NCBI RefSeq assembly: GCF_964194155.1
Contig: NC_135882.1
Span: 4,340,001-4,404,000, forward strand
Reading direction: 5' to 3'
From: Cetorhinus maximus
Taxonomy: Eukaryota
Length of the DNA stretch: 64,000 bases
The notes under the pieces were generated by a model. It was not told where the DNA came from and made no database searches. It saw nothing but the letters and a program-made list of their open reading frames with translations. Position numbers and translations under genes: made by a program. This document shows positions 1,598-62,489 of this stretch, in pieces (position 1 is the stretch's first letter; each line of letters opens with the position of its first letter).

Positions 1598-2786
1598 TTA
1601 AATAACTTGACAGCAGCTAGTCTGACTGGAGGTACACAGCAACCCATCCTTGGGGTTCCGCTGAATATTCACAGAAATTGTTTTCTCGCAGAGAGGTAGC
1701 TGTAGAACATTATTCTTCAAGTTCATGTTGTTCTCTTTTGACATTTCAAGCTCATTCAGCAGGTCAGCCACCTGGTCAGAATAGGACTTCCTGCAGCAGG
1801 AGGTAGCGGATCGTTCCATTATATTGCTGGAGGCAATGCACATTTTCCAGGCTGATTTCTCATGTATTCGAATCGCTGAAGTTGGCTCAATGATGTATCT
1901 GCTACCATTGCCACCATGCAGTTGCGAACCCAGGCAGAGACTCATCAACTTCAGGCTCTCCATCAAATCCTCCGCAGCTTTGGACGACGGTGAAGTATTT
2001 CCCTGGGTTGTACAGCTGCGAGTTGTTGTTCCCGTGTTGTTGGTGCTCCCGCCGGAGTCATTTGAAGGGCTGCTCCCACCTTTGTTACCATCACTTGGGC
2101 TGCTCTTGTCAAGGCCAGCGTTACCATCACTCGGTTTACCCTGCCCACTTCCATCTCCTCCACTTCCCGGAGGCCCCTCGCCACTGTCACGACGATGCCA
2201 GGAGTAAGTGAATCCTCCATCTTTGTCAAGAAGTCTACGGCTTTCTGAATCATCATCGCTGGTTTCTGAGCTGCTGCAACTTGAGCCTCGCCCTTGACTT
2301 TTCCGCTTGTGGTACCGTTTGTGCACCGTGCTTGGAGAAGCTATGTTCATCTTTAGTCGACTGAGTTTGGGGGGCAGGTTTTCATCCATGTCAAAGTCAT
2401 CATCTGACTCCCCCTCCTCAAAGATCTGATTGAGGACAGGAGCACTCTTCCTGGTCGTAAGCCGGTTTGTTATAGAAGGCTTACGTCGCAAAACTACTTG
2501 AGTGGGAAGAGGAGCTGCTTTTTTGTCATCCTCATCATCCTCGTCATCCTCCTCCACCCTGAACAGACACGTCCTATTGCTTGCACCAGTCTTTCCAGCT
2601 GACCCAACGGTTGATGTCTCTTCTTTTTTTGCAGACTCACCAGATTTCATTCGGTGCCCATTAATAATGGACTCTGCAGTGCGGGCTGGTGAACAGACAA
2701 CAGGAATAGACACAGGATGGATGATGGGTGACGTTGTGATGTCTTCAATATCCTTGGGCACATCAATTTTTGTAGGCCAGGACTGC
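1598..2786 (-). CDS. SNRK: SNRK last coding exon (regulatory tail with acidic tract, basic KRYHKRK cluster and Ser/Gly-rich region; ends CCQVI*)
   Basis: ORF 1598-2800. A polypyrimidine tract precedes the acceptor tctag| at 2787-2788. Contains QSWPTKIDVP and APVLNQIFEEGESDDDFDMDENLPPKLSRLKMNIASP, which match SNRK. TAA at 1598-1600. Confidence 0.97.
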
Positions 2787-4780
2787 CTAGATTTGAACAA
2801 AAAAAAAAGGGAGAGAAAGAGAAAACAAAAAGCTTTAATTCGCCCATTTTGTTCATTTCCTTCCAGACTTTAGTATTGAAGTTAAATGTAGATTTACATT
2901 TCAGCAAGTTAATGATACACAGGATGGTCATGTTTAACATTAGACATTCAGGCTAATTATACTTCCTTACAGTCTTAACAAGTCCCTCAACATCACAGTA
3001 AGTTTATGATAAGAAATAATACTTTCCAAACAGTGGAGAGAACAAAACCAGTAAATACACTACACTAAACGAACAGTACTCGCTACTCCTGAATTTCAAG
3101 GGAGAGTCAATACAGACACTTCAATTCCTGCAGATGTACATCTCCTATAACAAAGCTGAGATAGTGGCTCCCTACAACTGCTCTTCTCAGAAAGTTATCA
3201 AGTGTTTCATGCTCAGGCAGGTCCTGTAGGGCAATGGATCAAAATCTGTTTACTTCCTGCACCTGAGCATATAAAATGTTTGGCACTTCACCTAATAACA
3301 ATTTCCTTTTGGTGGTGGCATTGGATGCTGAATGGTGGGTGTGACTAACTTACCCAATGATGAGAAAATCATTTAAGTCTTAACTCGATCTGTTGTGGTG
3401 ATAATACCCGACAGATGAAGCTGGTCAAACACTGATTGGAATTCTGGACATAATTATAGTAAACTGGCTGTTGCTCCAACTAGGTGACCAGTATGCAGGT
3501 CACTTCATGAGCTGGTACAAGGTAGTGCATTCTTGAATTGGGGTTTTCACGAATGATGAGTAGCAAACCCACCGGAGAAAAGATAGGCATGCTTCTGAGA
3601 AACAAGATCATCTTTCAGCACAAAGTACATGCCTCAGCCGAGCTGTCTTGCACTGCAGAAACTGAGGCCATGGTAATATGTTGAATTAAGAGAGAATCTC
3701 ATTAACTTTTGCAAACCTTATAGAACTATGTTAAGTTCTGCAACAAACCTGCACTTGGAAAATATCACCTCACTCAAACAGCAGTCAGAAATCCTTATTT
3801 ATGTGAAAAGTGAGCTGGTGAGAAGCTGGACAGGCAGAACTTCATATCATCTAGGCTAAAATTGACCAATATGATTATCTGCCTGGTAAGGTCCTGCACA
3901 TTATATGAGCATAGCCTAACTGTACAGGCTTGAGGGGATTATATCACAATCTGGGTGGGGGCGAAAAAGACTCTCAGCAAAGACTCATCAGGCTCTTGCT
4001 TAGTCTGAGGTAATACCACACCCTCTGATTTTAGAGGTTTTCTACAGATTTAACATTACCCATTAGCTTTTATATTCCAAACCTCGTGATAAAATCTAGA
4101 ATTCCATCAGCTTTCCCTCTTAGATAACGTTACTGACCAGAGGTGCTGTCATAAATGTCCCACCAACCTGTAACCACAAATCCCTCTGCTCTCCATAGAA
4201 TGCTCAATTTCTGATTTTCTTTTCTATTTCTTTATTTTACTCTAACAAGACCACCATCATTTGCATATACTAGTTCCTATCCCCATGACCATGGAATATA
4301 AAATGGACGGTGAAATCTCTGATGCAGTCTGTCCTCCAGAAGACAGTTTCAACTCTGGCCAGCATATTGAAACTTCGGGAAACCCTTAGACATAATGCAA
4401 GTCTCTGACATCAAGGTTTTAGCACTATGTATTTCCAGTGTTTCTTTGCCACCAATTGGCACCGCTGGTTTTAGCCATGGAATGACTAATTAACAAATGA
4501 CTAGATTTATTGCATTACCAACTCCACTAACTTGTTCTGCACAATTCAAGAAACACATGCTTTGCTATCCATTACATTATGTTTTGCCCACCCAGTATGC
4601 GTCACATTTTAATGCTCACAAGGACCAGCATCTGTTTTAGAGGCCTGCTAATGTGACTCTGGGGAAATACCCAGACTCCACACCACCCTACTGTGGTTGA
4701 GTGCAAACTTCCCCACAAGAAACATAGCTGAAGCGCCTGGGAGACATAAACCAACCTGAATACCTGATGTCCAAACTCCA

Positions 4781-6708
4781 ATTTGAATTGAAAACGTATT
4801 AGGCCCATTCTTCCTGCCTTACTGAGTGCAACAACAACACCTGTCCTATGCCCCACAGTTCCCCCACCCACCAAAACCCATCAGTAATACCATCCAACGG
4901 GCCAATAAGGACAATGATCCCCTACTAAAATGGAAAGTTACAGGCAGGACTTCCTTGTACCTTAAACCCAAAGACCAAAAGCAAAACCCTTTTAAGAAAG
5001 AAAATTGTACTTTTGTATTTTTTTTAAAACATCCTTGGAGCACCCTAAATAAAGCCCTTCACTGCCACAGAACATTCTACTCAGTCTTTGCGCAAGTTCT
5101 TTGATCAAGAACTCCAAAATTAATGAATTTTTTCACAAGATCCCAATGACAGCAGATGACATAAAAGACCAGTTCATTAGTTTTGGTGACATTGATCGAG
5201 AAATAGAAGTTGGCCAGGAATCTGGAAGGATCGCCCTGCTCCTCATGACATATTTTACTTTCCCATGAATAAGGTAGGCAGTTTAATGTCTCAACTGAAA
5301 GACAGAGCCCCTTGCACTCCCTCAGTATTGCACTGAAATGTCAGCTTAGATTATATAAAAAGTCCTGTGGTGGGGTTTGAACTCACTTAGGGGACAAGAG
5401 AGGCACCCCTGAGCCAAACTGGTACTTCATCACATATTGTATCCAGTCCACACACAGCCATGCCAAGAAATCTTAATATATTCCTCCCTCAAGCACTCTA
5501 CAATCAAAATGCATAGATCTAGCTCTAAGTAGCCTTTAAAATAAAACACTTTGTTAAAGCAAGGGGTTTAAGAGTTATACCCTAGTTATTTCTGCAAATC
5601 GTTTAATCTCAGATACCTGTATTTGCAGGGAAGTGGATTAGCAGAGCAGGTCACTCAAAACTCTAAAAGCAGGGAGATAACTCAAGGAGAAAAGGATTCC
5701 TCGGGTGAAAACTGATTACTCAAACTTTCCTTCCCTGTGAATCCAGTGACCCTACAGTAGAAAAGAATCTTTAGTTCTTACAAAAAAGCTGCTTACACTA
5801 AACTAAGCCTGGAAATATGAAAAGGCTATTGCAAACACCTTTGTGCATCTAGAATTAAACGTACTCCATCTGATCAATCCCAGATTTTGTGACGACTATT
5901 TTAGGACAGGCTACCAAAAATATTTTGTGGACAGCCAGAGAAGGCAGTTTCACCAGGACTGCCAACACCCTCAAAGGGATTCATTATACACTGTGGGGCA
6001 GTGTGAGGGTATTTACTCAACAAAGATTAACATTATATAAGGCAAAATCCAAACAAAAGAAAAATATGTAGAATACTTTGCTCATCACAAACACATTTCT
6101 ATTAAATAGCTTCAATAAAACATACCAAATGTAACCTGGTGCAGAATTTGGATAACTGATTATCACAATAATGCAGAAGTTTGTATGTGTGCGTGCTGGA
6201 TTTCACATCAGCTTTTTGCAGCATTGATGACAAACTAAGTATAAAATTGGCTCCTGTAACCAGCAGGAATCCAGCAACACAAGCAGTGCATGTTTATGTT
6301 AGAGGCAAAGATTAAGAAATTTCTGTTTGAAAGTGTGTGTCTGTACTTCTAGAACTTCCATGTTAATCATCAGTCTGTTTGTCCTTACCTGAACTGAGCT
6401 TTGATATGGCTCGGACTGGGAGATCGGTTCCTGACTTCTTTTTCCTGTTTTTCCTTCAGGATCCTCTCAGCCAGCAAAAAGTAAGTGGCAGTGATGTGAT
6501 TGTACTTGTTACTTTCCAGGGCCCTTAGAAAATAAAGCAAGCAGCAAAAGCACCCTTTAGTAGCTATTTAGAAAACGACATGTTTATAATATAAACCACA
6601 GAATACTGATGGGTTTTGGTGGGTGGGGGAACTGTGGGGCATAGGACAGGTGTGTTGTTGCACTCAGTAAGGCAGGAAGAATGGGCCTAATATGTCTTCA
6701 ATTCAAAT
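4781..6708. repeat. Long inverted repeat (arms 4781-4886 and 6604-6708) flanking the SNRK exon at 6389-6523
   Basis: The reverse complement of 6604-6708 matches 4781-4886 with 2 substitutions and one 1-nt indel. Confidence 0.95.
6389..6523 (-). CDS. SNRK: SNRK coding exon 4 (UBA C-terminal part, [45 protein letters not shown]), 135 nt, phase 2-2
   Basis: Translated by hand because it is not in the ORF track. Acceptor ttctaag| at 6524-6525 and donor CAG|GTAAGG at 6388. The [11 protein letters not shown] motif is typical of AMPK-related kinase UBA domains. Confidence 0.95.
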
Positions 6709-7582
6709 ACTGTGTGCACCCTTTGTGACAAATAAATTTGAAACTGGTTAAAAAGCTGCCACTTGTTTGGAATTCCCTGCAACAAGCAATAATTATGGCA
6801 CATTAATTCTATAGATGCTATGCTGATAACTGCCTATTTATAGAAATGTTATCCTATTTGCACAAAGAGTAGCACAAGTTCCCAAGTAATCCATCATATA
6901 AAGTGCTATTTTGCTTAAATTGAATATCACTGTATCTTGAATTCATGGTTATATTCAAACCCGAGAAACTGTGACCAAAATTATAGCAGATTTTGCACTA
7001 ACATAATGCTATACATGAACAAAACCTTTCTCTCCGCAAGCTTTTAAATGTGGAGAAAGTTTTTATTGCAACTTGTGTCAGCTTCATCAGGGAATAGGTG
7101 TTCCTTAGATGAGTAAATCTCCCACCGAGTTCCAAACACTAAGTCAGATGACAAGATTGTTATTCCATGTCCTGCAAAATGAGTTATTCCACCCAGGTGA
7201 CGGTATCCTTAAGGCCACAACGCCCAGCTGTTGTCCATTAAACAGAACCTAAGGTTAATCAGAGTTTAATCACGGTTCTCATTGAAAAAGATGGAAAATT
7301 TCTATCTCAGGCTGGAGGTCAGAAGTGCCCAACATTAAGTCGGGGGCTCCTTTCTCTTTTCTAAAGATTTCTCTCCAGTTGTAACAAAGCGATAGAGAAA
7401 ATGTGGAATAAATGTAATGTTTTTATACAGCGTATATTTGTCCATATTATTTATTTTCTAGACATCACATTTTGTATAATAGTCCTAAAAGGCAACTTCT
7501 AGGCTACATCCCGAACCCAACAAGCACATTAACTTGTGAAGATTCCTGATGAAATAATTAAGTTGAGTAATTTTAATCTTCA

Positions 7583-9985
7583 CAAGAACATAACAATTAG
7601 GAGGAGTAGGCCATTTGGTTCCTCAAGTCTGCTCCGCTATTCAATAAGATCATGACTGATCTAATTCTGGCCACAACTCCTCTTTACTGCCTGCCCCCCC
7701 ATAACCCTTAATTCCCTTGTTGATCTAAAATCTAACTCAGCCTTGAGCATATTCAATTAGCCAGCCTCCAATGCTCTCTGGGGAAGAGAATTCCACAGAC
7801 TAATGATCCTCAGGGAAAAATATAGTCTTAAGTGGCAAACTCCTAATTTTTAAACTGTGCCCCCTAGTTCTGGACACCCCCAAAGGGGAAACATTCTTTC
7901 ATCATCCACCCTGTTAAATCCTCGCCAGGTATTACGCGTTCCAATAAGATGACCTCCGAGTCTTCTAAACTCTAATGGGAATTAGCCCAACCTGTCCAAC
8001 CTTTCCTCATAAGCTGACCCTTTTATCCCAGGAGTCAGTTGAGTGAACTGTCTCCGAACTGTTTCCAATGCAATTATGTCCTTTAAGCAGATGAAAACAG
8101 TACAGGGTACTCCAGATGCAGTCTCACTAAGGCCCTATACTACTGTAGCAAATCATCCCTACTTTTATACTCAATTTCCCTTGCAAAAAACAACAACATT
8201 CCATTTGCCTTCCTAATCACTTGCTGTACTTGTATACTGCATTTTTGTGAATCATGTACCAGGACACCAAGGTCCCTCTGTGCCACACATTTCTGTAGAG
8301 TTTCTCCATTTAAATAACATACTGCTTTTCTATTCTTCCTGCCAAAGTGGACAAGTTGACATTTTCTCACATTATAATCCATCTGCCAGATTGTTGCCCA
8401 TTCACAATCTAAAGTCCCTTTGTAAACTCTTTGTCCTCTTGACAACTTACTTTCCTATCTATCTTTATGTCATCAGCAAACTTAGCTACAATAAATTTGG
8501 TCCCTTCATCCAAGTAATTGATACAGATTGTAAATAGTTGAGGCCCCAGCACTGATCCATGTGGCACCCCACTAGTTACAGCTTGCCAATCTGAAAATGA
8601 CTCATTTATCCCTACTCTGCTTCCTGTTAGTCATCCAATCCTCTATGGAGGTGTCAGCTGTGGCTCAGTTCATAGCACCCTCGCCTTTGAATCAGAGGGT
8701 TGTGGGTTCATGTCCCACTCCCGGAAACCAAGAACTGTGATTGTACTCGAAAGAGTTGCAATCTGTGACTGTTGATAACTCGAAAAGAGTATCCAATCCT
8801 CCATCCATGCTAATATGTTATCCCCTACACCATAAGCTCTTATTCTGTGAAGTAACCTTTGATGTGGCACCTTATTGAATGTCTTTTGGAAATCCAAGTA
8901 CATCACATCAACAGGTTTCCCTTTATGCACGTTGCTCATTTCTTCCTCAAATAACTCTAATAAATTAGTCAAACGATTTCCCTTTAACAAAACCATATTG
9001 ACTCTGCCTGGTCTTATTATGATTTTCTAAATGTCCTTCTATTTTCTCTTTAATAATGGATTCTAGCATTTTCCCTATGCAGATGTTAGGCTAACTGGCC
9101 CTCTTAGTTTCCTGCTTTCTGTCTCCCTCCTTTCTTGAATAGAGGTGTCACATCTGCAATTTCCTAATCTGCTGGGACATTTCCAGAATCTAGGGAACTT
9201 TGGAAAAATCACATTTAATGCATCTAGCTCTGCAGCCACTTCTTTTCAGACCCAAGGATGAAAGCCATCAGGTCCAATGGATTTGTCAGACTTTAGTTTT
9301 TATAGTTTTCCCAGTACCTTTTCCCTAGTGATTGTAATTATTTTAAGTTCCTCCCTCCCTTCTACCTCTCGATTTTTAACTATTCTTGGGGTTTTTTTGT
9401 GCCTTCTACAGTGAAGAACACAAAATACCTGTTCAGTGCTTCAGCAATCTCCTTGTTTTCCATTATCAATTTCACAATCTCACCTGCTAAGGGACAAATT
9501 CTTACTTTAGTTACTCTTTTCCTTTTTAAATACTTGCAGAAAGTCTTACTACCTGTTTTAATATTGCTAGTTTCCATATACTCTAATTTCTCCCTTTTTT
9601 TTGGTCATTCTTTGCTGGTTTCTGAAAATCTGTCCAATCTTCTGACCTACCACTAATTTTCCGAGTATTGTACATTTTTTCTTTCCATTTAATACTATCC
9701 TTAACTTCCTTTAGGAGCCACGGATGGTGCATCCTTTTCATATGTCTCTTTCTTTCTTTGCTGAGAGTTATGAAATATCTCCTTAAATGTCTGCCACTGC
9801 TCCTCAACTGTCCCTATCTTTTAACCTATTTTCCCAGTTCACTTTAGTCAACTCTTTTTCATACCCTTGTAATTGCCTTTATTCAAGTTTAAGACACTAG
9901 TCTTAGGTTTACACTCATCGTTGTCAAACTGAATGTGACTCTTATGTTATGATCACTGTTGTCTAGAATCTCCTTTACTATGACT
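7583..9985 (-). mobile_element. CR1-clade LINE, 5'-truncated, with decayed ORF2 (RT) and 3' end
   Basis: Fragments LTNLLELFEE...VDVMYLDFQKTFNKVPHQRLL and WQMDYNVRKCQLVHFGRKN...QRDLGVLVH are CR1 RT motifs. The CR1 3' tail is at about 7585-7700. Confidence 0.92.
8647..8790 (+). mobile_element. Short tRNA-head SINE-like insertion within the CR1, with a 14-bp target-site duplication
   Basis: A-box-like tggctcagtt and B-box-like ggttcatgtccc. Flanked by atccaatcctctat (8633-8646) and atccaatcctccat (8791-8804). Confidence 0.75.
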
Positions 9986-10775
9986 TCTGCCTTCAAGGGA
10001 CAGCTTCACCATAGCAGCATAATGCTATATAGTAATATGTAGTATGTCATCTACTGTTATTAAACTACTAAGAACTCCCACATTATCATGTCATGAGAGA
10101 AATGTTAAACGTGCCATTATGTGTCATTATTTATTTTCTTGCAACCGTTACATTTGAAATAAAACCAACTCTTACTTCTGGGTAAGTGGGACAGCAAACA
10201 GATACCTCTACAAACTAATTAGCCCTCCTCATCTCAGTCATGAATAAGCTGACTTATTAATTCAGTTTTTCAGAAATATGCAGTGAACTGACAGCCAGTA
10301 AAGGATATTCAATGGAAGCCAACAACTTTATAAATTGTATTTCTGAAATTTGATTACAATTGTAGAAAGTTGGTGAAGTTTCCCTGTCCACTCATTATAT
10401 TTTTGTGACTCTATACTCCACTCTAGTTCCATTTTCTCATGTCTATTCAGTTGTGAATACTGGTAAATAAAGTTCATAATGGCATAACTTTTAATTTGCC
10501 CTCCCACAATTTCACATGTACGTCAACGAATATTTAACTGCATTTTCGCTGCGACTGCATCTCAACAGCTTTTAATCTAGGTCTTATTAAACAGGTTATT
10601 TTCAGAAATACGCAACTCAGAAACTGAAGTTGGGTGATACAAGTGTTAAACCCATCAATGCCAGAAATTAGACAGTGCAAGTATTGTAGACAACGTGTCT
10701 ATGATACCCTCCAGAAAACAAAGCCGGCATTGATACAGGCTTGTGTTTTGTCCACTAGGCTTTCTCTACACTTAC

Positions 10776-10988
10776 TCAATAATGGTTTCACGGTCTGCTA
10801 TTTCACCAAGCACCATGCGCTGGATAATGCCATTGTGCTCCTCCTCAGAGAGGTTCTTGTAAGAAACAAGAGGGATGTTGCACTTAGTTGCAGGTGAGGG
10901 GTCGATTCCTAGTAGCCAGGGGTGGTCCTCAATCTCTTCCAACGAGGCTCTTCGCTTCGGATCCCTCTGCAGCATCCGATTAATAAGA
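10776..10988 (-). CDS. SNRK: SNRK coding exon 3 (end of kinase domain, start of UBA domain), 213 nt
   Basis: Encodes [25 protein letters not shown]...RETIIE. Acceptor ccaacag| at 10989-10990 and donor GA|GTAAGT at 10775. Confidence 0.97.
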
Positions 10989-12349
10989 CTGTTGGGATAG
11001 TCATAAAATGAAACAGTTCAGAAATGTTGCCTTCTATGACTTATGAGAAAATGGAAATACCCAAACATTGAACAGCACTGTAGATGGACCTGAAAATGGA
11101 ACTAAATGTGAGGAATGCTCAGGAAAACCCCATTTGTGGAATTAACACAGAAGATAGGCCAAGCCTGGGCAGTAAAATTAAACTCAATAAAGCAGTGGAA
11201 GAAAAAAGTAACATTGAGTAGAAGAACACAGTTTAATAAGTCTAGCACTTATTAAATGGCAAACTTGATACGCTGCTGTTGTGAAGATTAACACAAGAAT
11301 GTCACTGAACAGAAAATACTAAATTTTCAGACAGATTAAAAATGGGATTTTTCAACAGAACAAAAAGATTCTGACAAGGACAGGACATCAGAAAATGCAT
11401 TACTGCCTGTCATTTTTGGGATTAGAGGAAATATTTCATGTATATGAAAAGGCAGCTTTTCAAAATACATTAATGGGAAGAGACTCCTGAAAGTGCGACA
11501 ACAAGGCAGTGTTGGAACTTTCTCATTTCCTGTTATTATTATAGAAAGCAGATGAAAAACTAGCATAATAAAACACATTGGTGCAATCAAAAGATCTTTC
11601 ATGCGTCAATTTAGCAACTATTTAATATTAACAGCAAGGTGACAGGCATATTGAAAAATTAAAATAATTCCTATTTACTCATTTACCAATTTAAACCTTG
11701 AACATTTTGCTTAGCCCTTTTCTTTAAATTAAAGCCTTAATAACTTATTTAAAATGTCTGTTTTCCTTTCTAGTTGCTCCTCTCCTAACATGGATGGCTG
11801 GCTACTTGCATTGATGTTCAAATTTTACACTCACCATTGACAAACACTACACTTGAGCTGAATCATTTTATTTCAAGTTTCTCTCGCTAGTGTTGGGAAT
11901 CAAGCAAAAAAAAAAAAGGGGGAACTGCAAGGAAGGGCAAGAGCAGTGATTTGTGTGTACTGAATGTGGGCATCATCTCCCACATCCTCATTCCAGACAT
12001 CTTCAAATAAGCCACCAGCCTAGATTCAGAACAGCTGCCCACTTTGGAGATTCTACATAAAATGGATAAATTTGTCCAAACTGTGTGAATCCAAGGTCCT
12101 TTATACAAGGAGGGCATAAGGTTTAACGGATATCATGAATCATGTCTAGTTGGCATCACACAGTCTTATTTTGCCATAAATGATCATCTTGGAACTTCTA
12201 TGCAGCTTATACATACTTTATATATAAAGTACAGCTTTTAAAATACAGAATCTTGTTAAATACATTTATATCACTTAGAAATATTAAAGATTATACAGAA
12301 ACAGCCAGCATGTAAACACCAAGTTGATAGGAATGTTGTTTCTACTTAC

Positions 12350-19493: not shown

Positions 19494-21146
19494 TTCTCAA
19501 GTATGTAATCAGAAACAACCATGGCAATTTAACAAGTTAGAACAGTCATGCAGCACAAGAACTGACTCACGTTTTCTGGAGCTAACCCACTCTAATAAAC
19601 ATACCTGTAGTACATTCCAACCACACCTCTTCAGTGCCTCAAACACGGTATTTTGCATAAGGGAAATGAAAGTTACACATTGTGGAACTCCTACATCTGG
19701 CAGCTCTTGGCCATATGCAAATTTACTTAGATTTTGTAATTCACTCAGATATTGGACACCAACGTCTCCTTTGAATGAGCAAGTGCTTTTCAAAAAGACT
19801 TTTACCAAAATCCACTGCTCCTAGCCCACACCTTTTATTTATATTCCTGATTGATGCCATACTCCAGCAAGTGCCTTCTCAGTGTTGGTAGGCTGTTTTC
19901 AGTGGAGGACAGAGGTAAACTGGGTTCTAAACTGAAGTCTACACTACCAAGAAGTGTTACCAAATAGCAATCAAAAGAACTTTATTCTTTTTACTTTTAG
20001 TGCCCAATAGTCACACTGTCACACTGGTTGAGCTCAGCTAATTCAGCAGCGTGGTGATAAAGAAGGATTTACAACTACATTGCACCTTCCATGACCACAG
20101 AATGTTCCCAAGTACTTTACAGCCAATGAAGTTCTTTTGAAGTGTAGTCACTGCTGTCATGTAGGAAACACAGCAGTCAATGAACACAACAAGCCCCCAC
20201 AAATAGCAATGTGATAATTGACCAAATAATTTGTTTTAGTGATTAAACCTGCAACCTTCCAATCTGTTTGGCTCAACTATTCACTGAAAAAATGGGGCCA
20301 ACCAAGTAACAAATTATTGCACCCTGTGTTCCTATTCATAGTGGAACTATGCATTTCACTGCTACAAAAGATAGAAACACACCAGCTATGTGTGGCTAAC
20401 TGGGAAACCAAATGTGCCTAATTGTGTGTCTGATTAAGTAATTAAAAAAAGTAACAGACACCATCACTGGATGTGTGATCCCAATGCTCATTGCAGAGCA
20501 TTGCCCTTTAACCTTGTGTGTGTTTGTAAAATGGTAACAAAGAAAGAGGGTGCTTTATGATCATTGGTTACCAAATGGTGGTAGCTATGTTAAATATCTA
20601 AGTAAACTTACTAGCCATAGCAACACCTATGGCTAGTTAGCAATTTCTATTGGGCAACATTGTTTTAGAGACACAAAATCCTCTTTTAAGAAATTGTTGT
20701 ACAGCAAGTAATTTCCTTGCACCTCTGCAATAGAACAGTTGTACAAATGGGCAATTAGCTGGGTCTCAAAAAGGCTGTAAAGAAACTAATGATAGAAATG
20801 AGACGTATTCAACAAAAAAAAGCTAGTGGCTCTTTGCGAGGTCCACTCAGCCTATTTCTCAAGTATGCAGTCAGAAACACCATGGCATTTTAACAAGTTA
20901 GAACAGTCATAAAACACAAGAACTACTCACACTTACTGTAGCCAACCCACCTCTAATAAACATACCTATAAGTACATTCCAACCACACCTCCAATACATC
21001 AAACAAGGTATTTTGCAAAAGGGAAATGAATGTTACATATTGTGGAACACCTACATTGAGAAGGTAGCCCTCACACATATAGGCAAATTTACTCAGATTT
21101 TGCAATTTATTCAAATATTGGACACCAATATCTCCTTTGAATGAGC
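19494..21146. repeat. Dispersed direct duplication (19494-19780 and 20856-21146)
   Basis: About 290 bp of clearly homologous sequence from ttctcaagtatg to tctcctttgaatgagc. Diverged, with small indels. Confidence 0.9.
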
Positions 21147-23619: not shown

Positions 23620-25140
23620 AAGTTATACAGGAAGAGATGGAGGGGCATTTATGTGATCCCTATGTTTAAGGGAAGTAATCGAGAACCAGGAAACCACAGG
23701 CACATTAATTTTACTTCAAGTCTAGGCAGGTTACTAGAAGATATGATTAGAGATATGTTACATCATATAGAAAGAGCAAGGGTTATTAGAGAATCCCAAT
23801 GTAGCTTCAAAAAGGGTAACTTTTTTCAACAATCAGATCAAATTTTTCAAAGCAGTTACACAATCGATAGATATCCAGTGAATGTTGTGTATCGTGATTT
23901 CCAAAAAAGGTTTTGATAAAGCCCTACACAAGAGGTTACTAAATAAGATTCCATCTTCTGAGATTGCTGGGCAACTCCAGGGTTTGATAATAAAATATTG
24001 TATTCACACACAGGGTAGTTATTAATGGTTGCAGCTTTGACCGGGGAGCTGGGAACTAGCAGAGTCCCACAGATATCCTCATTAGGCCAGTTTCTCTTCA
24101 TTTTTAGTAATAACCTGGATGCAGAACACAAACATGTATGTGGTAGTTGGTACCTTAGACAAATTAAGTAGCCTGCAAGAGGATCTAGATGACAAGGGAA
24201 ATGTGTCCGATGAATGGCAGATGTCTTCCAATTGCACTGGAAGCATTGCAATGGACTGGGGTAATACCATGGTGTGTATACACCATGAGGTTGGCTGCTC
24301 AAGACTGAACAGAGAATGAACACTATAGATACACAATTGGTGTCACTCGGCTGCTGTGAAAGTGACTATCACATTAGGGTGCATTGGTAGAATAATTAAA
24401 TATAAAACTCAAGTTACGAGTTTTTGCCTTGTACAAGACCTTTGTCCAGTTAGATGTAGAATACTGTGTCCTGTTTTGGTACCTTCACATAGCAAGCGGT
24501 GTTGAGGCACAAAGACAGTCATTCGATTGATACCTGTTTTAAGAGCTTTAGTTATAAACTTAGACTTAGGGAACTGGGTTTCTTAGTTAGGAAAAGTGCT
24601 AGGGGTGTAAATTAGAATTTTAAAATAATGAAGGAATAAAAGTCCTGCCTCTGGGGACAGACTACTTAAGCTAGATGAACGTGGGATGATCGGGGCATCA
24701 GTATAAGTTACAAAAAGCACATAATTAGACAAGTGCAGATTTGTTGCAAGCCTTCAAAAAGGTAGGTGGGTTAAGAGGTACCAATGACATCCGTCATTGG
24801 GGTTAACTGGAGCTTGCTTGATTGTAATTCTCCAGTGAAAACATGGCATCCAAGTTTCACAACAGCAAAGTGACCCCTGCCTAATGTTTTATCCAAATCA
24901 TACAGCCCAGCAATTTTTCCATCATATCCGTGTTTAAAACCTGCCAGGCTGTACTCAAAAATGGAAACAGAACTTAAGATGTTTATATCCAGGTTATTTT
25001 TCCTATATTAGGACAGGTTTATTCTCCCTTTCAGAAGAATGAGTGGGTGCAGGAGTAGGCAACCGTGGATTGCATCGTGTCATGGAAGGTTCGATAGACC
25101 AATTGAATCATTTTCCTGTCCTCTATTTCTTCATGTTCAT
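23620..25140 (+). mobile_element. Old decayed CR1 RT fragment containing the SNRK exon copy
   Basis: PMFKGSNREPGNHRHINFTS...VNVVYRDFQK matches CR1 RT. Further 3' CR1-like sequence runs to about 25140. Confidence 0.75.
24828..24992 (-). pseudogene. Intronic partial copy of the SNRK start-codon region (source 25812-25976)
   Basis: 165 bp, ungapped, 12 mismatches by manual alignment. Main ATG changed to CTG. Confidence 0.93.
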
Positions 25141-25342: not shown

Positions 25343-25931
25343 CTACTGCAGGCGCATCATACTCATCACCAAGCAGAATCTCTGGGGCGGAATACGCAAG
25401 TGACCCACAGCTTGTTGTTAACTTCTTTCCAGGTTGAAACTTGTTACTAAACCCAAAATCTGTAAGTTTTACAATTCCTTGTTGTTCAAAGAAGACCACA
25501 TTTTCTGGCTTCAGGTCTCTATGAACAACATGCAGCTTATGGCAATAAGATATTGCATGCACTATCTGTGCAAAGTATTTCTTTGCTAGATCTTCACTAA
25601 GACCATCTTCATGTTTCATGATGTAATCAAACATATCACCTCCATCTCCCAATTCCAGAATAAGATAAAGTTTTGTCTGAGTGTCAATCACTTCATACAG
25701 ACGGACAATGTTGGGATGTTGCACCAGTTTCATACATCGTACCTCCTGGAACAAATGTCCTGTAGCTACAGAGTCCAGTTTTGTTTTATCAATGACTTTC
25801 ACTGCTACTTTTTCTCCAGTGAAAACGTGGCGTGCAAGTTTCACAACAGCAAAGTGACCCCTGCCTAATGTTTTATCCAAATCATACAGCCCAGCAATTT
25901 TTCCATCATATCCACGTTTAAAGCCTGCCAT
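25343..25931 (-). CDS. SNRK: SNRK first coding exon (kinase N-lobe through activation segment), 589 nt of CDS
   Basis: Encodes [31 protein letters not shown]...VAVK...HRDLKPEN...DFG...[14 protein letters not shown], the recognisable SNRK N-terminus. ATG is in strong context (agcATGg). Donor G|GTATGT at 25342, phase 1. Confidence 0.98.
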
Positions 25932-26058
25932 GCTGTTCTCAAAGCTGGAAGCAGAACATAAGATGTTTATATCCAGCAGCAGATAAAATGTGCAATTATT
26001 TCAAAAAGTCCATCACAGACAAAGAACCCATTTTCCCCGCTGTTTAATATGATGAATC
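25932..26058 (-). other. SNRK: 5' UTR part of the SNRK first coding exon, containing two uORFs
   Basis: Strong acceptor ttttttgtattgcag| at 26059-26060. uORFs at 26031-25996 ([11 protein letters not shown]) and 25959-25939 (MFCFQL*). Confidence 0.85.
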
Positions 26059-59789: not shown

Positions 59790-60700
59790 TGGAAGTCAGT
59801 CAGGCACAAAAAATTATCAAGAAGCCTGATGGAATGTTAGCCTTGAAAAGTGGAGCACTAGAACATCAAAGGAAGGAAGTGTTACAGCTATACTAAGCCC
59901 TGAAGTACTGTGTACAGTTCTGAGCACCAAACCTTAATAAGGATAAATTAACTTTGGAAGGAGTGCAATGCAGATCCACCAGAATGTTACCAGAGCTCCA
60001 AGGGCTTGATTTTGGGGAGAGTTTACATAAACCAGGTCAGTATTCCCTGGAATATAACAGGTTAAGGGGTGACTTGATTAAGCTTCTTAGACCTTTGAAA
60101 GTAATTGTTGAGGTAGATAGGGAGGAACATTTGTCATTGTTGGGGGATGGGGGGAGTCTAAAACAATGGTTCAGAACCTCCAGGCTCAGTACTGGGGAGA
60201 AGATTAGATACAGTTGGGAGAATAGTAGTGATCAGATAGCTTTTAAAGAACCTTCAACATGTCCAGTTTAATGTTTAATCCAAGCGGTTGAAAGTGGACG
60301 GACCCAAAAGTTGGGATTTTATTACAGTTTAATTCCTGGCAGTAGAAATACTTGATTTAATGTATTGGGGTCAGGAGGGCTGCAGAAAATGCAGTGTAAA
60401 ATACACTGGAGAGTGTATTTAAAAAAAAAATCTCCAAACTCAAATTCCAAAATTCAGGGCAGAATTTGGAACACTTCTTCGTTCAAAGGGTGGTAGAAGT
60501 GTGGAACTCTCTCTCTCCCACAAAAAAAAACAGTAACTGCTAACTTAATAAATCATTTTAAATTTGGGATCAATAGATTTTTGCTGGACAAGGATTATGG
60601 AGCCAAGGCAGGTGGATGGAGTTAAGATACAGATTTGCCATGATGTAACTGAATGAAAGAACAGGTTTGAAGGGCTGAATGGCCTCCTTTTGTTCCTACG
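59790..60700 (+). mobile_element. CR1 3' fragment interrupted by the 233-bp duplicated segment
   Basis: ORF LEGVQCRSTRMLPELQGL...YSLEYNRLRGDLI. The CR1 tail resumes at about 60450-60700. Confidence 0.8.
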
Positions 60701-62194
60701 TGCTCACATCAGTAGAAACCAAGCTGGAGTCTCACATTATGTGAAGTGCAGTTAATCTGTGCAGAATATTTTTTGGCATCAGTTAGGTTTGCAGCTGAGA
60801 GCAGCCAATTAAGGCACATTCACTTACAATTGGGAATTAGTCATCATGGAAACAAAATTGCCTTTCAATGCTTCATTTATTTTGTGAGTCAATGCATTAT
60901 AAAATGGTGAACCATAAGTAAGGAGGCAATCAGACTGCAGTGTAACAGTGCTATGAAGAAATTCTTACTTCACTGTGACTCTGAAGTTACATTATAACTC
61001 TGAATGCTGGTCCCACCCAATTCCAATCCCACTGGCGTTAGACTCCTTGAGGAACTAGTGTGATTTTTGAGGTCAAATCCAAGATAAAATGTGCGTAAGG
61101 ACCCTCAGAGAGCAGGATCCTGGATAGGGGCTTTGTAGTTCTAAGTCTGGAAGTAAAAACAAGATATTGGCTGGTTGGAAATACCCTTGAAACTTCTGTA
61201 GGGCAAGAAATGATGGGAATTTATACTGATGAGTTCTGACCCAATAATGCTTCAGTAATATAACCCAGGATTCATCTCTGATGAGCAACTCCCAACTCTC
61301 AGCATCTCTGCTGCTCTTGGACCAGGGATGGTTACTTTGGAGGTGGAGGGGAGACTTGGCTTGGGCTTGGCCAAGGGATGGAAAGCCATACCGTCGATGG
61401 GTGGAAAGAGAGAACCTCTTGGGGGAGAAGATCCCGTTAGCGCAAATTGGCAGAGACAGTAGGAGACACAACCTGTTGTGCTGTGAGAAGAGGACAGTTA
61501 GGGAGAAACCGAGTAGGAGCGAGGAACTATCCAGGACTCTTTCCAAAGAGCTGTCACTAAGGCTTAGTGTGATCGTGTCATAAAACATTGACTCATGCAC
61601 AGTATTACAGGAAATCTCTATGAGCGTGTGTGAGAGAGAGAGAGAGACAGACAGAGAGTGCATCCATAAACATATGTTCTGAATGTAGATAGAGAAACGA
61701 TATTTGACACAAATAGCATTCATGACTAAAGCTTTTGCTGTACTTGAGAAAACCATCTTGCATTGTTTTATTCATATTGCGCACGAGGCTGCTTTGCAAC
61801 TGATTTCCACATTAACATCTGCTGGGTGGGCTGTGAAAATGTTGACCTTGTGTTTATTTCTGTCCTTGTTCCTAGCTCTTGGGGAGTTACAAGGAGCACT
61901 GCACGTAACCAACCTTTGGGCTGCTGGCAAATTGCAGGAAGCAGCTGTAGAAGCGACAGAGCAGGCTCAGTACCGGGGAGAAGATTAGATACAGCTGGGA
62001 GAATAGTAGCCATCAGATACCTGTTAAAGAACCTTCGACATGTCCAATTTAATGTTTAATCCAAGTGGTTGAAGCTGGACAGACCCAAAAGTTGGGATTT
62101 TATTACAGTTTAATTCTTGGCAGTAGAAATATCTGATTTAATGTATTGGTGTTAGGAGGGCTGCAGAAAATGCAGTGTAAAATACACTGGAGAG
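60181..62194. repeat. Dispersed direct duplication (60181-60413 and 61962-62194)
   Basis: 233 bp in both copies, from caggctcagtac to atacactggagag, roughly 90% identical by eye. Confidence 0.92.
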
Positions 62195-62489
62195 CGTGCA
62201 AGAATACCTGGGGAGAGTGGCTGTAGCAAAATATACTGGAACGTGGCCTGTGAAAGGGGCAAGGCAAGGTTATCCACTGTCATTTGGAAGCGCTGTAGAA
62301 ATGTGAGTTATGATCTTTATGCCGATTTGTGTGCTAACTGCTTTCAAAATGTTATTTTCCACCCATTTACAGGACTGCATGGTACTTTACATACAATGCC
62401 AACTTGCATTTATATAGCACCTTTACCATAGTGCACCATTATACATGTACTCTTCTTGGTTGTACAGTAGTGCAATGGTTAAATGGTTG

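What the first reader, a model, noticed from the sequence alone, without database searches (positions are those of the whole stretch)
4781..6708. Near-perfect ~105-bp inverted repeat loops out the in-frame UBA exon of SNRK: candidate structure-driven exon skipping or circRNA switch
Seen: 4781-4886 and 6604-6708 are reverse complements with only 2 substitutions and one indel; on the pre-mRNA strand one substitution gives a G-U pair. The arms do not resemble the SINE or LINE families elsewhere in the window and are far more similar to each other than those repeats are. One arm ends only 80 nt upstream of the 3' splice site of the 135-nt exon (6389-6523). That exon is symmetric (phase 2-2), a multiple of 3 and has a weak AAG acceptor. 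Known: complementary intronic sequences flanking an exon promote skipping and back-splicing and are ADAR substrates; this exon encodes the last helix of the UBA domain of an AMPK-related kinase. Inference: this locus may produce an in-frame SNRK lacking 45 aa with a broken UBA domain, and/or a 135-nt circle. The circle would be a stop-free frame, although it has no AUG.
Basis: partly seen in the sequence, partly recalled or inferred. Interest (0 to 1): 0.8.

Follow-up and report, generated by a model that had tools for sequence, protein, structure and literature searches.

The report
Repair-born inverted repeat around SNRK exon
In a shark's SNRK kinase gene, a 105-base piece of one intron sits copied backwards in the neighbouring intron, likely a DNA-repair scar; the two copies are predicted to pair around one exon and likely cause some skipping of it, as a white shark gene model lacking exactly that exon suggests.

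Summary
Bases 4781-4886 and 6604-6708 are a two-copy inverted repeat (103 of 106 alike) flanking the 135-nt, frame-preserving penultimate SNRK exon. It is neither a transposon nor an assembly artefact. The genome holds only these two copies, and a relative 3-4% diverged carries both arms.

The exon-proximal arm is framed by a 7-bp duplication and microhomologies, which marks it as a likely templated repair insertion. The arms are no more alike than neutral decay predicts. Comparable single-copy inverted pairs occur in 2 of 156 sampled 10-kb stretches.

The predicted product is annotated: RefSeq Carcharodon isoform X2 lacks exactly this exon and loses the UBA match, whereas 0 of 20 non-lamniform cartilaginous fishes list such a form (p=0.09). 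However, 5 of about 240 proteins from other vertebrates also lack it, and no RNA junction was seen directly.

Best reading: a natural, non-transposon counterpart of TBXT-type loop-out skipping, probably minor and tolerated rather than a regulated switch. A 135-nt circle is unlikely to be the main product.

The parts
4781..4886 (.). Arm A, in the intron downstream of the exon (pre-mRNA is on the minus strand); likely the template copy. It carries one extra base at 4836 that the relative lacks.
   Evidence: the best flanking direct repeat is only 3 bp; organism C contig 9 spans it
6604..6708 (.). Arm B, reverse complement of arm A, ending 80 nt upstream of the exon's 3' splice site; likely the inserted copy
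   Evidence: organism C contig 15 spans it without a gap
6602..6608 (+). Left copy of the 7-bp direct repeat AATACTG framing arm B; its last 5 nt are a microhomology with the end of arm A
   Evidence: 7 bp or more in 1.6% of 4000 random intervals
6706..6712 (+). Right copy of AATACTG; its first 3 nt are a microhomology with the start of arm A
6389..6523 (-). Looped-out SNRK exon: fourth of five coding exons, 135 nt, phase 2-2, residues 316-360, C-terminal half of the UBA domain
6524..6603 (-). 80-nt acceptor region with a branch-point-like TACTAAA, pyrimidine tract and AAG; it lies inside the loop, not in the stem
   Evidence: branch-point reading is by eye
10776..10988 (-). Upstream SNRK exon (end of kinase domain, start of UBA); donor of the skip junction
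1601..2786 (-). Coding part of the last SNRK exon; acceptor of the skip junction

Best explanation
A two-copy 105-bp inverted repeat flanks the frame-preserving UBA exon of SNRK; it likely arose as one templated DNA-repair insertion, is predicted to pair in the pre-mRNA, and likely causes minor, tolerated skipping of that exon rather than a regulated switch. Inferred origin: a broken end at about 6602-6608 folded back on its own strand, primed on 5 nt at the end of arm A 1.7 kb away, copied about 100 nt and rejoined through 3 nt, duplicating AATACTG. This happened before the split from organism C, and the arms have drifted since. Inferred action: arm B is transcribed first and arm A 1.7 kb later, so a 104-bp helix can close over the exon and let the upstream donor join the last exon in frame, giving a 710-aa kinase without half of its UBA domain. 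Shown: the repeat, its copy number, its presence in a relative, the junction repeats and the annotated isoform. Inferred: the repair origin, pairing in vivo, causation and the low level.
For: Two copies only. Both arms are spanned by single contigs of organism C, whose intron is 3.1% diverged (90 of 2862 sites). A 7-bp duplication frames arm B and not arm A, matching the snap-back pattern of insertion plus flanking repeats in PMC2943611 (passages). The arm duplex is -205.6 kcal/mol; 104 arm-arm pairs appear in the 2.1-kb fold with mean probability 0.99, and the fold loses 177 kcal/mol without arm A. RefSeq Carcharodon X2 lacks exactly this exon and its UBA match. The form is listed in 1 of 2 lamniform and 0 of 20 other named cartilaginous fishes (Fisher p=0.09). 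A 220-297-bp intron piece engineered in reverse across mouse Tbxt exon 6 produces skipping (PMC10901737 passages). For 'tolerated': 2 substitutions between arms against 3.3-4.3 expected under neutrality (P 0.20-0.36). Organism C's arms probably share no 31-mer, implying about 6 differences.
Against: The enrichment rests on one species and is not significant (p=0.09). Five of about 240 informative proteins from other vertebrates also lack the exon (a bird, whale, pig, whitefish and viper), and their introns were not examined. The window's own species lists only the 755-aa form (3 accessions). The tools do not say that organism C is Carcharodon, so the isoform and the arms are not shown in one species. 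In human, inverted Alu pairs differ only slightly in folding energy between skipped and constitutive exons (d = -0.12; PMC13019027 results part 1). The donor is strong and arm A lies 1.5 kb past it, so the exon may be committed before arm A is made. Only 1 of 10 other testable single-copy pairs had a flanking repeat of 6 bp or more, so the origin signature is not general.
Confidence: 0.5

Rival explanations
1. The repeat is a neutral repair scar with no real effect on splicing; the Carcharodon X2 model reflects the background skipping that any short frame-preserving exon shows, because such transcripts escape decay.
For: Single-copy inverted pairs of 80 bp or more, at least 90% alike and up to 3 kb apart occur in 2 of 156 stretches, and any such pairs including repeats in 9 of 156. 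They enclose 0.19% and 0.46% of sampled DNA, so hundreds of exons would be enclosed by chance. The exon is missing from 5 non-shark models. Arm identity fits neutral decay.
Against: The exact predicted isoform appears in the closest annotated relative and in none of 20 other cartilaginous fishes, while about 2% of other proteins lack the exon. The helix is far more stable than competing folds. Deleting Alu arms changed skipping in seven reporters, by about 1 to over 40% (PMC13019944 passage).
Confidence: 0.35
2. The repeat is a selected, regulated switch that sets the ratio of full-length to UBA-less SNRK in particular tissues of lamniform sharks.
For: Both arms persist in two species. The skipped form is in frame and annotated. 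The UBA domain is reported to inhibit SNRK activity (review PMC7508454, passage), so the product could differ in activity. The intron stretch 5486-6417 inside the loop is less diverged than 4300-5406 (17 of 932 vs 45 of 1107, p=0.004).
Against: There is no excess arm identity. An uncompensated one-base insertion sits in arm A of this species, and about 6 mismatches are inferred in organism C. The test has low power on 105 bp.
Confidence: 0.08
3. The main product of the pairing is a 135-nt single-exon circular RNA.
For: Flanking inverted repeats of 30-40 nt suffice for back-splicing (PMC4201285 abstract). The circle has a stop-free frame.
Against: In the same study ZKSCAN1 exons of 400 nt or less circularised poorly or not at all, and a 51-nt exon gave none. 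One arm is 1.5 kb from the donor. The known mammalian circ-SNRK (747 nt) comes from exons 1-2 and depends on NOVA1, not on this exon (PMC8989981 passages).
Confidence: 0.05
4. The repeat is an assembly artefact, or the ends or copies of a mobile element.
For: Repeats cover 54% of the sampled DNA, and the genome search can miss very common words.
Against: An independent organism's contigs bridge both ends of both arms. There are only 2 genomic matches and none in 1.56 Mb. The outer flanks printed show no target duplication by eye. There is no Rfam match. The enclosed exon keeps its orientation, which rules out an inversion.
Confidence: 0.02

Closest known systems
TBXT exon 6 skipping by the AluY-AluSx1 inverted pair, and the engineered mouse Tbxt insRCS/insRCS2 alleles (PMC10901737, passages read)
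   Same: A lineage-restricted inverted pair in the two introns around one exon, a similar span (1,448 bp there, 1,717 bp here) and a protein lacking that exon. The insRCS alleles are a piece of one intron copied in reverse into the other, as here.
   Different: The arms here are 105 bp, single-copy and not retrotransposons, and the event is natural. Causation and phenotype are untested.
Genome-wide loop-out skipping by inverted Alu pairs (PMC13019027 abstract and results part 1 of 3; PMC13019944 passages)
   Same: A long-range intronic duplex over a short exon with a non-optimal acceptor.
   Different: Not a SINE family; the arms are 97% alike; a fish; origin likely by repair synthesis.
Snap-back SD-MMEJ / MMBIR templated insertions (PMC2943611 passages; PMC8421209 search listing only)
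   Same: An insertion forming an inverted repeat with nearby sequence, with short flanking repeats on both sides.
   Different: The template is 1.7 kb away and the insert about 100 nt, longer than the near-break events described there; the event is fixed in the germline and shared between species.
Mammalian circ-SNRK (PMC8989981, passages)
   Same: Same gene; back-splicing.
   Different: Different exons (1-2, 747 nt), promoted by NOVA1; no link to this repeat.

Membership tests
Loop-out exon skipping by intronic inverted repeats | Complementary arms in the two introns flanking the exon | tested here: met
Loop-out exon skipping by intronic inverted repeats | Stable duplex predicted against competing folds | tested here: met
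   104 pairs, mean probability 0.99
Loop-out exon skipping by intronic inverted repeats | Skipped transcript exists in a species with both arms | tested here: inconclusive
   RefSeq Carcharodon X2 lacks the exon. The arms are shown in organism C, which is unnamed. No junction reads were seen.
Loop-out exon skipping by intronic inverted repeats | Skipping depends on both arms (deletion and compensatory rescue) | not testable with these tools
   needs a minigene
Inverted SINE/Alu-type pair | Arms are copies of a high-copy retroelement | tested here: not met
   2 genomic matches; 0 hits in 156 other stretches
Conserved regulatory RNA structure | Arms more alike than neutral expectation, or compensatory changes | tested here: inconclusive
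   2 substitutions vs 3.3-4.3 expected (P 0.20-0.36), one uncompensated indel and about 6 differences inferred in organism C. Per-site letters in the relative's arms were cut from the output.
Templated repair insertion (snap-back type) | Insert forms an inverted repeat with local sequence, with microhomology at both junctions | tested here: met
   5-nt and 3-nt microhomologies within a 7-bp duplication; 1.6% of random intervals, about 3% for two arms tested
Templated repair insertion (snap-back type) | Empty site in an outgroup | not testable with these tools
   no outgroup intron could be fetched; the one relative covered has both arms
Repeat-driven single-exon circRNA | Back-splice junction, resistant to RNase R | not tested
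   no RNA reads were obtained
Non-autonomous DNA transposon with terminal inverted repeats | Multi-copy family and target duplication outside the two arms | tested here: not met
   outer flanks read by eye

The most novel reading that the evidence does not exclude
One DNA-repair slip in the ancestor of basking and mackerel sharks created, with no transposon involved, a stem that makes a UBA-less and possibly de-repressed SNRK. The isoform is tissue-regulated and retunes mitochondrial coupling in the shark order known for regional endothermy. More broadly, repair-born single-copy inverted duplications (about one per Mb here) are an unrecognised source of lineage-specific exon skipping in slowly evolving shark genomes.
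Probability: 0.07. Interest if true: 0.8.

Novelty: new variant of a known kind. Interest (0 to 1): 0.4.

Why it matters
If the link holds, it is a natural example of what was engineered in mouse Tbxt: a short piece of intron copied in reverse across an exon creates a new protein isoform, with no transposon needed. It would hit a domain reported to restrain SNRK, a kinase tied in mice to mitochondrial coupling and thermogenesis (review PMC7508454, passages). It also defines a testable class, since pairs of this sort enclose about 0.2% of the genome. If the link fails, it is an ordinary repair scar.

Tried and rejected
RNA evidence: no RNA holder was listed as such (7 rows were RNA guesses with small shares). 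No RNA reads or contigs were laid, so skip and back-splice junctions and A-to-I editing remain unexamined.

Coverage in relatives: runs X5 (organism B) and X10 (organism C) gave no contig over either arm. About half of each run was read, so this says nothing about absence.

Searches that found nothing: Rfam gave 0 matches at E<=1 over 2700-11000. Earlier findings of the scan showed nothing. A fossil cDNA of the skipped mRNA was not found: searches with the middle exon, the upstream exon and P0122 found only a fragment that includes the exon and a paralog (one search used a stricter first look).

Other isoforms: the 'X2' forms of Chiloscyllium, Stegostoma, Scyliorhinus, Rhincodon, Heterodontus, Hemiscyllium and Narcine are N-terminal variants that keep the exon. 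Ten of 291 proteins were dropped from the exon tally as uninformative.

Alternatives rejected: an inversion with staggered breaks, because the exon keeps its orientation; direct masking of the branch point or pyrimidine tract, because both lie outside the stem.

Literature: a paper on short paired duplications, recalled from memory, was not held and the search did not list it. Searches for SNRK with sharks, SNRK with exon skipping and SNRK with circular RNA listed nothing on this repeat or isoform; only the top 12-20 rows were seen, and no supplements were read.

Full report
Observation. The repeat is as described: 4781-4886 and 6604-6708 align at 97.2% over 106 columns, with two substitutions and one indel. 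On the pre-mRNA (minus) strand the substitutions give U-G and C-A. The gene is SNRK. P0001 (755 aa, labelled Cetorhinus maximus by the tool) maps to five coding exons of the window and matches the solved human kinase-UBA fragment 5YKS over residues 1-356. The enclosed exon 6389-6523 is 135 nt and phase 2-2 and encodes residues 316-360; skipping it joins ...ETIIE to QSWPTK in frame.

It is real and two-copy. The arm has 2 matches in the genome and none in 156 other 10-kb stretches; Rfam finds nothing. In one search, contig 9 of run X13 (organism C, coded) spans 4300-5406 and contig 15 spans 6478-7300. All their gap letters are listed: the only one in an arm is base 4836, which organism C lacks, as arm B does. 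Both arms therefore predate the split. The own-species run X4 breaks at the arms, as a two-copy repeat would, but it may be the source sample and is not independent. Runs X5 and X10 did not cover the arms.

Age and constraint. Organism C differs at 90 of 2862 sites (3.1%; 4.1% in 4300-5406). Independent drift since the split predicts 3.3-4.3 substitutions between arms; 2 are seen (P 0.20-0.36). C's contigs pass unbroken through both arms, which in a 31-mer graph implies no shared 31-mer (inference). That needs at least 3 and more likely about 6 differences. The per-site letters in C's arms were among the 51 rows cut. Near-perfection thus reflects a slow clock, not shown selection; power on 105 bp is low.

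Origin. Arm B is framed by AATACTG on both sides (6602-6608, 6706-6712), whereas arm A has only 3 bp. Seven or more bases arise in 1.6% of 4000 random intervals. Five of those bases pair with one end of arm A and three with the other. This is the geometry of a resected end folding back on its own strand, copying about 100 nt and rejoining: the snap-back pattern of PMC2943611 (passages), here over a longer distance. Arm B, next to the exon, is therefore the likely newcomer. Only 1 of 10 other testable pairs showed a 6-bp frame, so this is evidence for this one event only.

Background. In 156 stretches (1.56 Mb; 20 beside the window, 136 dispersed), single-copy inverted pairs of 80 bp or more, at least 90% alike and up to 3 kb apart occur in 2 stretches (6 at 80% identity). 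With repeat-derived pairs the count is 9. They enclose 0.19% and 0.46% of the DNA. With some 200,000 exons (recalled order of magnitude), hundreds would be enclosed by chance. The arrangement alone is not surprising.

The predicted product. Cluster look-up returned RefSeq XP_041045600.1, Carcharodon carcharias isoform X2, 710 aa, lacking exactly this exon and both UBA profile matches (these are below Pfam's cut-off even in the full protein). Of 22 named cartilaginous fishes listed (my hand count), only this one has the form: 1 of 2 lamniforms and 0 of 20 others, p=0.09. Two unnamed cluster members were not listed. The window's species has three accessions, all 755 aa. Of 291 proteins held, 281 were informative and 6 lack the exon. 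The other five are a bird, a whale, a pig, a whitefish and a viper model; two are partial, and none of the five carries a RefSeq name in the listings. Only 120 of 344 and 120 of 323 search hits were listed, and large clusters were only sampled (15 of 319). That RefSeq variants need transcript support is recalled, not checked. No RNA junction was examined directly.

Mechanism. Folding of 4681-6808 gives 104 arm-arm pairs at mean probability 0.99; the duplex is -205.6 kcal/mol. The branch-point-like motif and pyrimidine tract lie inside the loop, so the route is loop-out, not masking. The precedent is close: a 220-297-bp reverse copy across mouse Tbxt exon 6 induces skipping (PMC10901737 passages). 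But most exons flanked by inverted Alus are not strongly affected (PMC13019027), and deletion effects range from about 1% to over 40% (PMC13019944). Here the donor is near consensus and arm A comes 1.5 kb later, so I expect partial skipping. A review states that the UBA domain inhibits SNRK, so the product could be more active. I recall that UBA integrity is needed for LKB1 activation in related kinases, so it could instead be inactive. A single 135-nt circle is disfavoured by exon length, and the known circ-SNRK is a different molecule.

Verdict. This is a real, shared, likely repair-born inverted duplication that works like TBXT-type pairs without being a SINE pair. I put 0.5 on minor loop-out skipping as a by-product, 0.35 on no effect, 0.08 on a selected switch, 0.05 on a circle and 0.02 on artefact or transposon. 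Searches listed no report of this repeat or isoform (top rows only). That some lamniforms are regionally endothermic is from an abstract start (PMC10645071); any link to SNRK is speculation. Interest 0.4.

Noticed in passing
window 24828-24992 vs 25812-25976: A 165-bp direct copy (92.7%) of the start of the first coding exon, including the first 40 codons (start codon changed, 90% amino-acid identity), lies 820 bp into the next intron.
   Followed up: partly
window 19494-19780 vs 20856-21146 and 60181-60416 vs 61962-62197: Two more single-copy direct duplications 1.1-1.5 kb apart. With the pair above and the inverted repeat, the window has 4 such pairs, against about 0.65 expected from the background (P about 0.005, not corrected for the window having been picked for one of them). 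This may be a local hotspot of short templated duplications.
   Followed up: partly
L160:1490-1675 (C5, 38.31 Mb) and L161:1457-1642 (C5, 35.92 Mb): An intronless SNRK fragment of about 190 nt (last 9 nt of the upstream exon, the whole middle exon and about 42 nt of the last exon; 89-92% alike), with no poly(A) seen. It is present twice within a 1132-bp inverted duplication (98.3%). It is a fossil of exon-including mRNA inserted into DNA.
   Followed up: yes
L165, L177, L162, L178-L179 (C6, 95.85-95.97 Mb): A diverged SNRK paralog with introns: first coding exon 89% alike, UBA exon 52%, a different acceptor phase before the UBA exon and a C-terminal match; no near-perfect inverted repeat around its UBA exon. 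Whether it is intact was not checked.
   Followed up: partly
window 5486-6417: The first 900 nt of the intron after the exon are less diverged from organism C (1.8%) than 4300-5406 (4.1%; p=0.004); possibly constrained intronic sequence.
   Followed up: no
window 5407-5485: 79 bp present in this genome are absent from both organisms B and C, which also share many substitutions, so they are closer to each other than to this species. A high-copy repeat fragment lies at about 5314-5357 between the arms.
   Followed up: no
L095:2296-2647 vs 3807-4158; L032:8029-8609 vs 9074-9649; L079:7306-7898 vs 9661-10000: Other long near-perfect inverted pairs in the background sample (352 bp at 100%; 583 bp at 96.9%; a nested single-copy pair at 92.6-95.7%), some possibly ends of young DNA transposons.
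   Followed up: no
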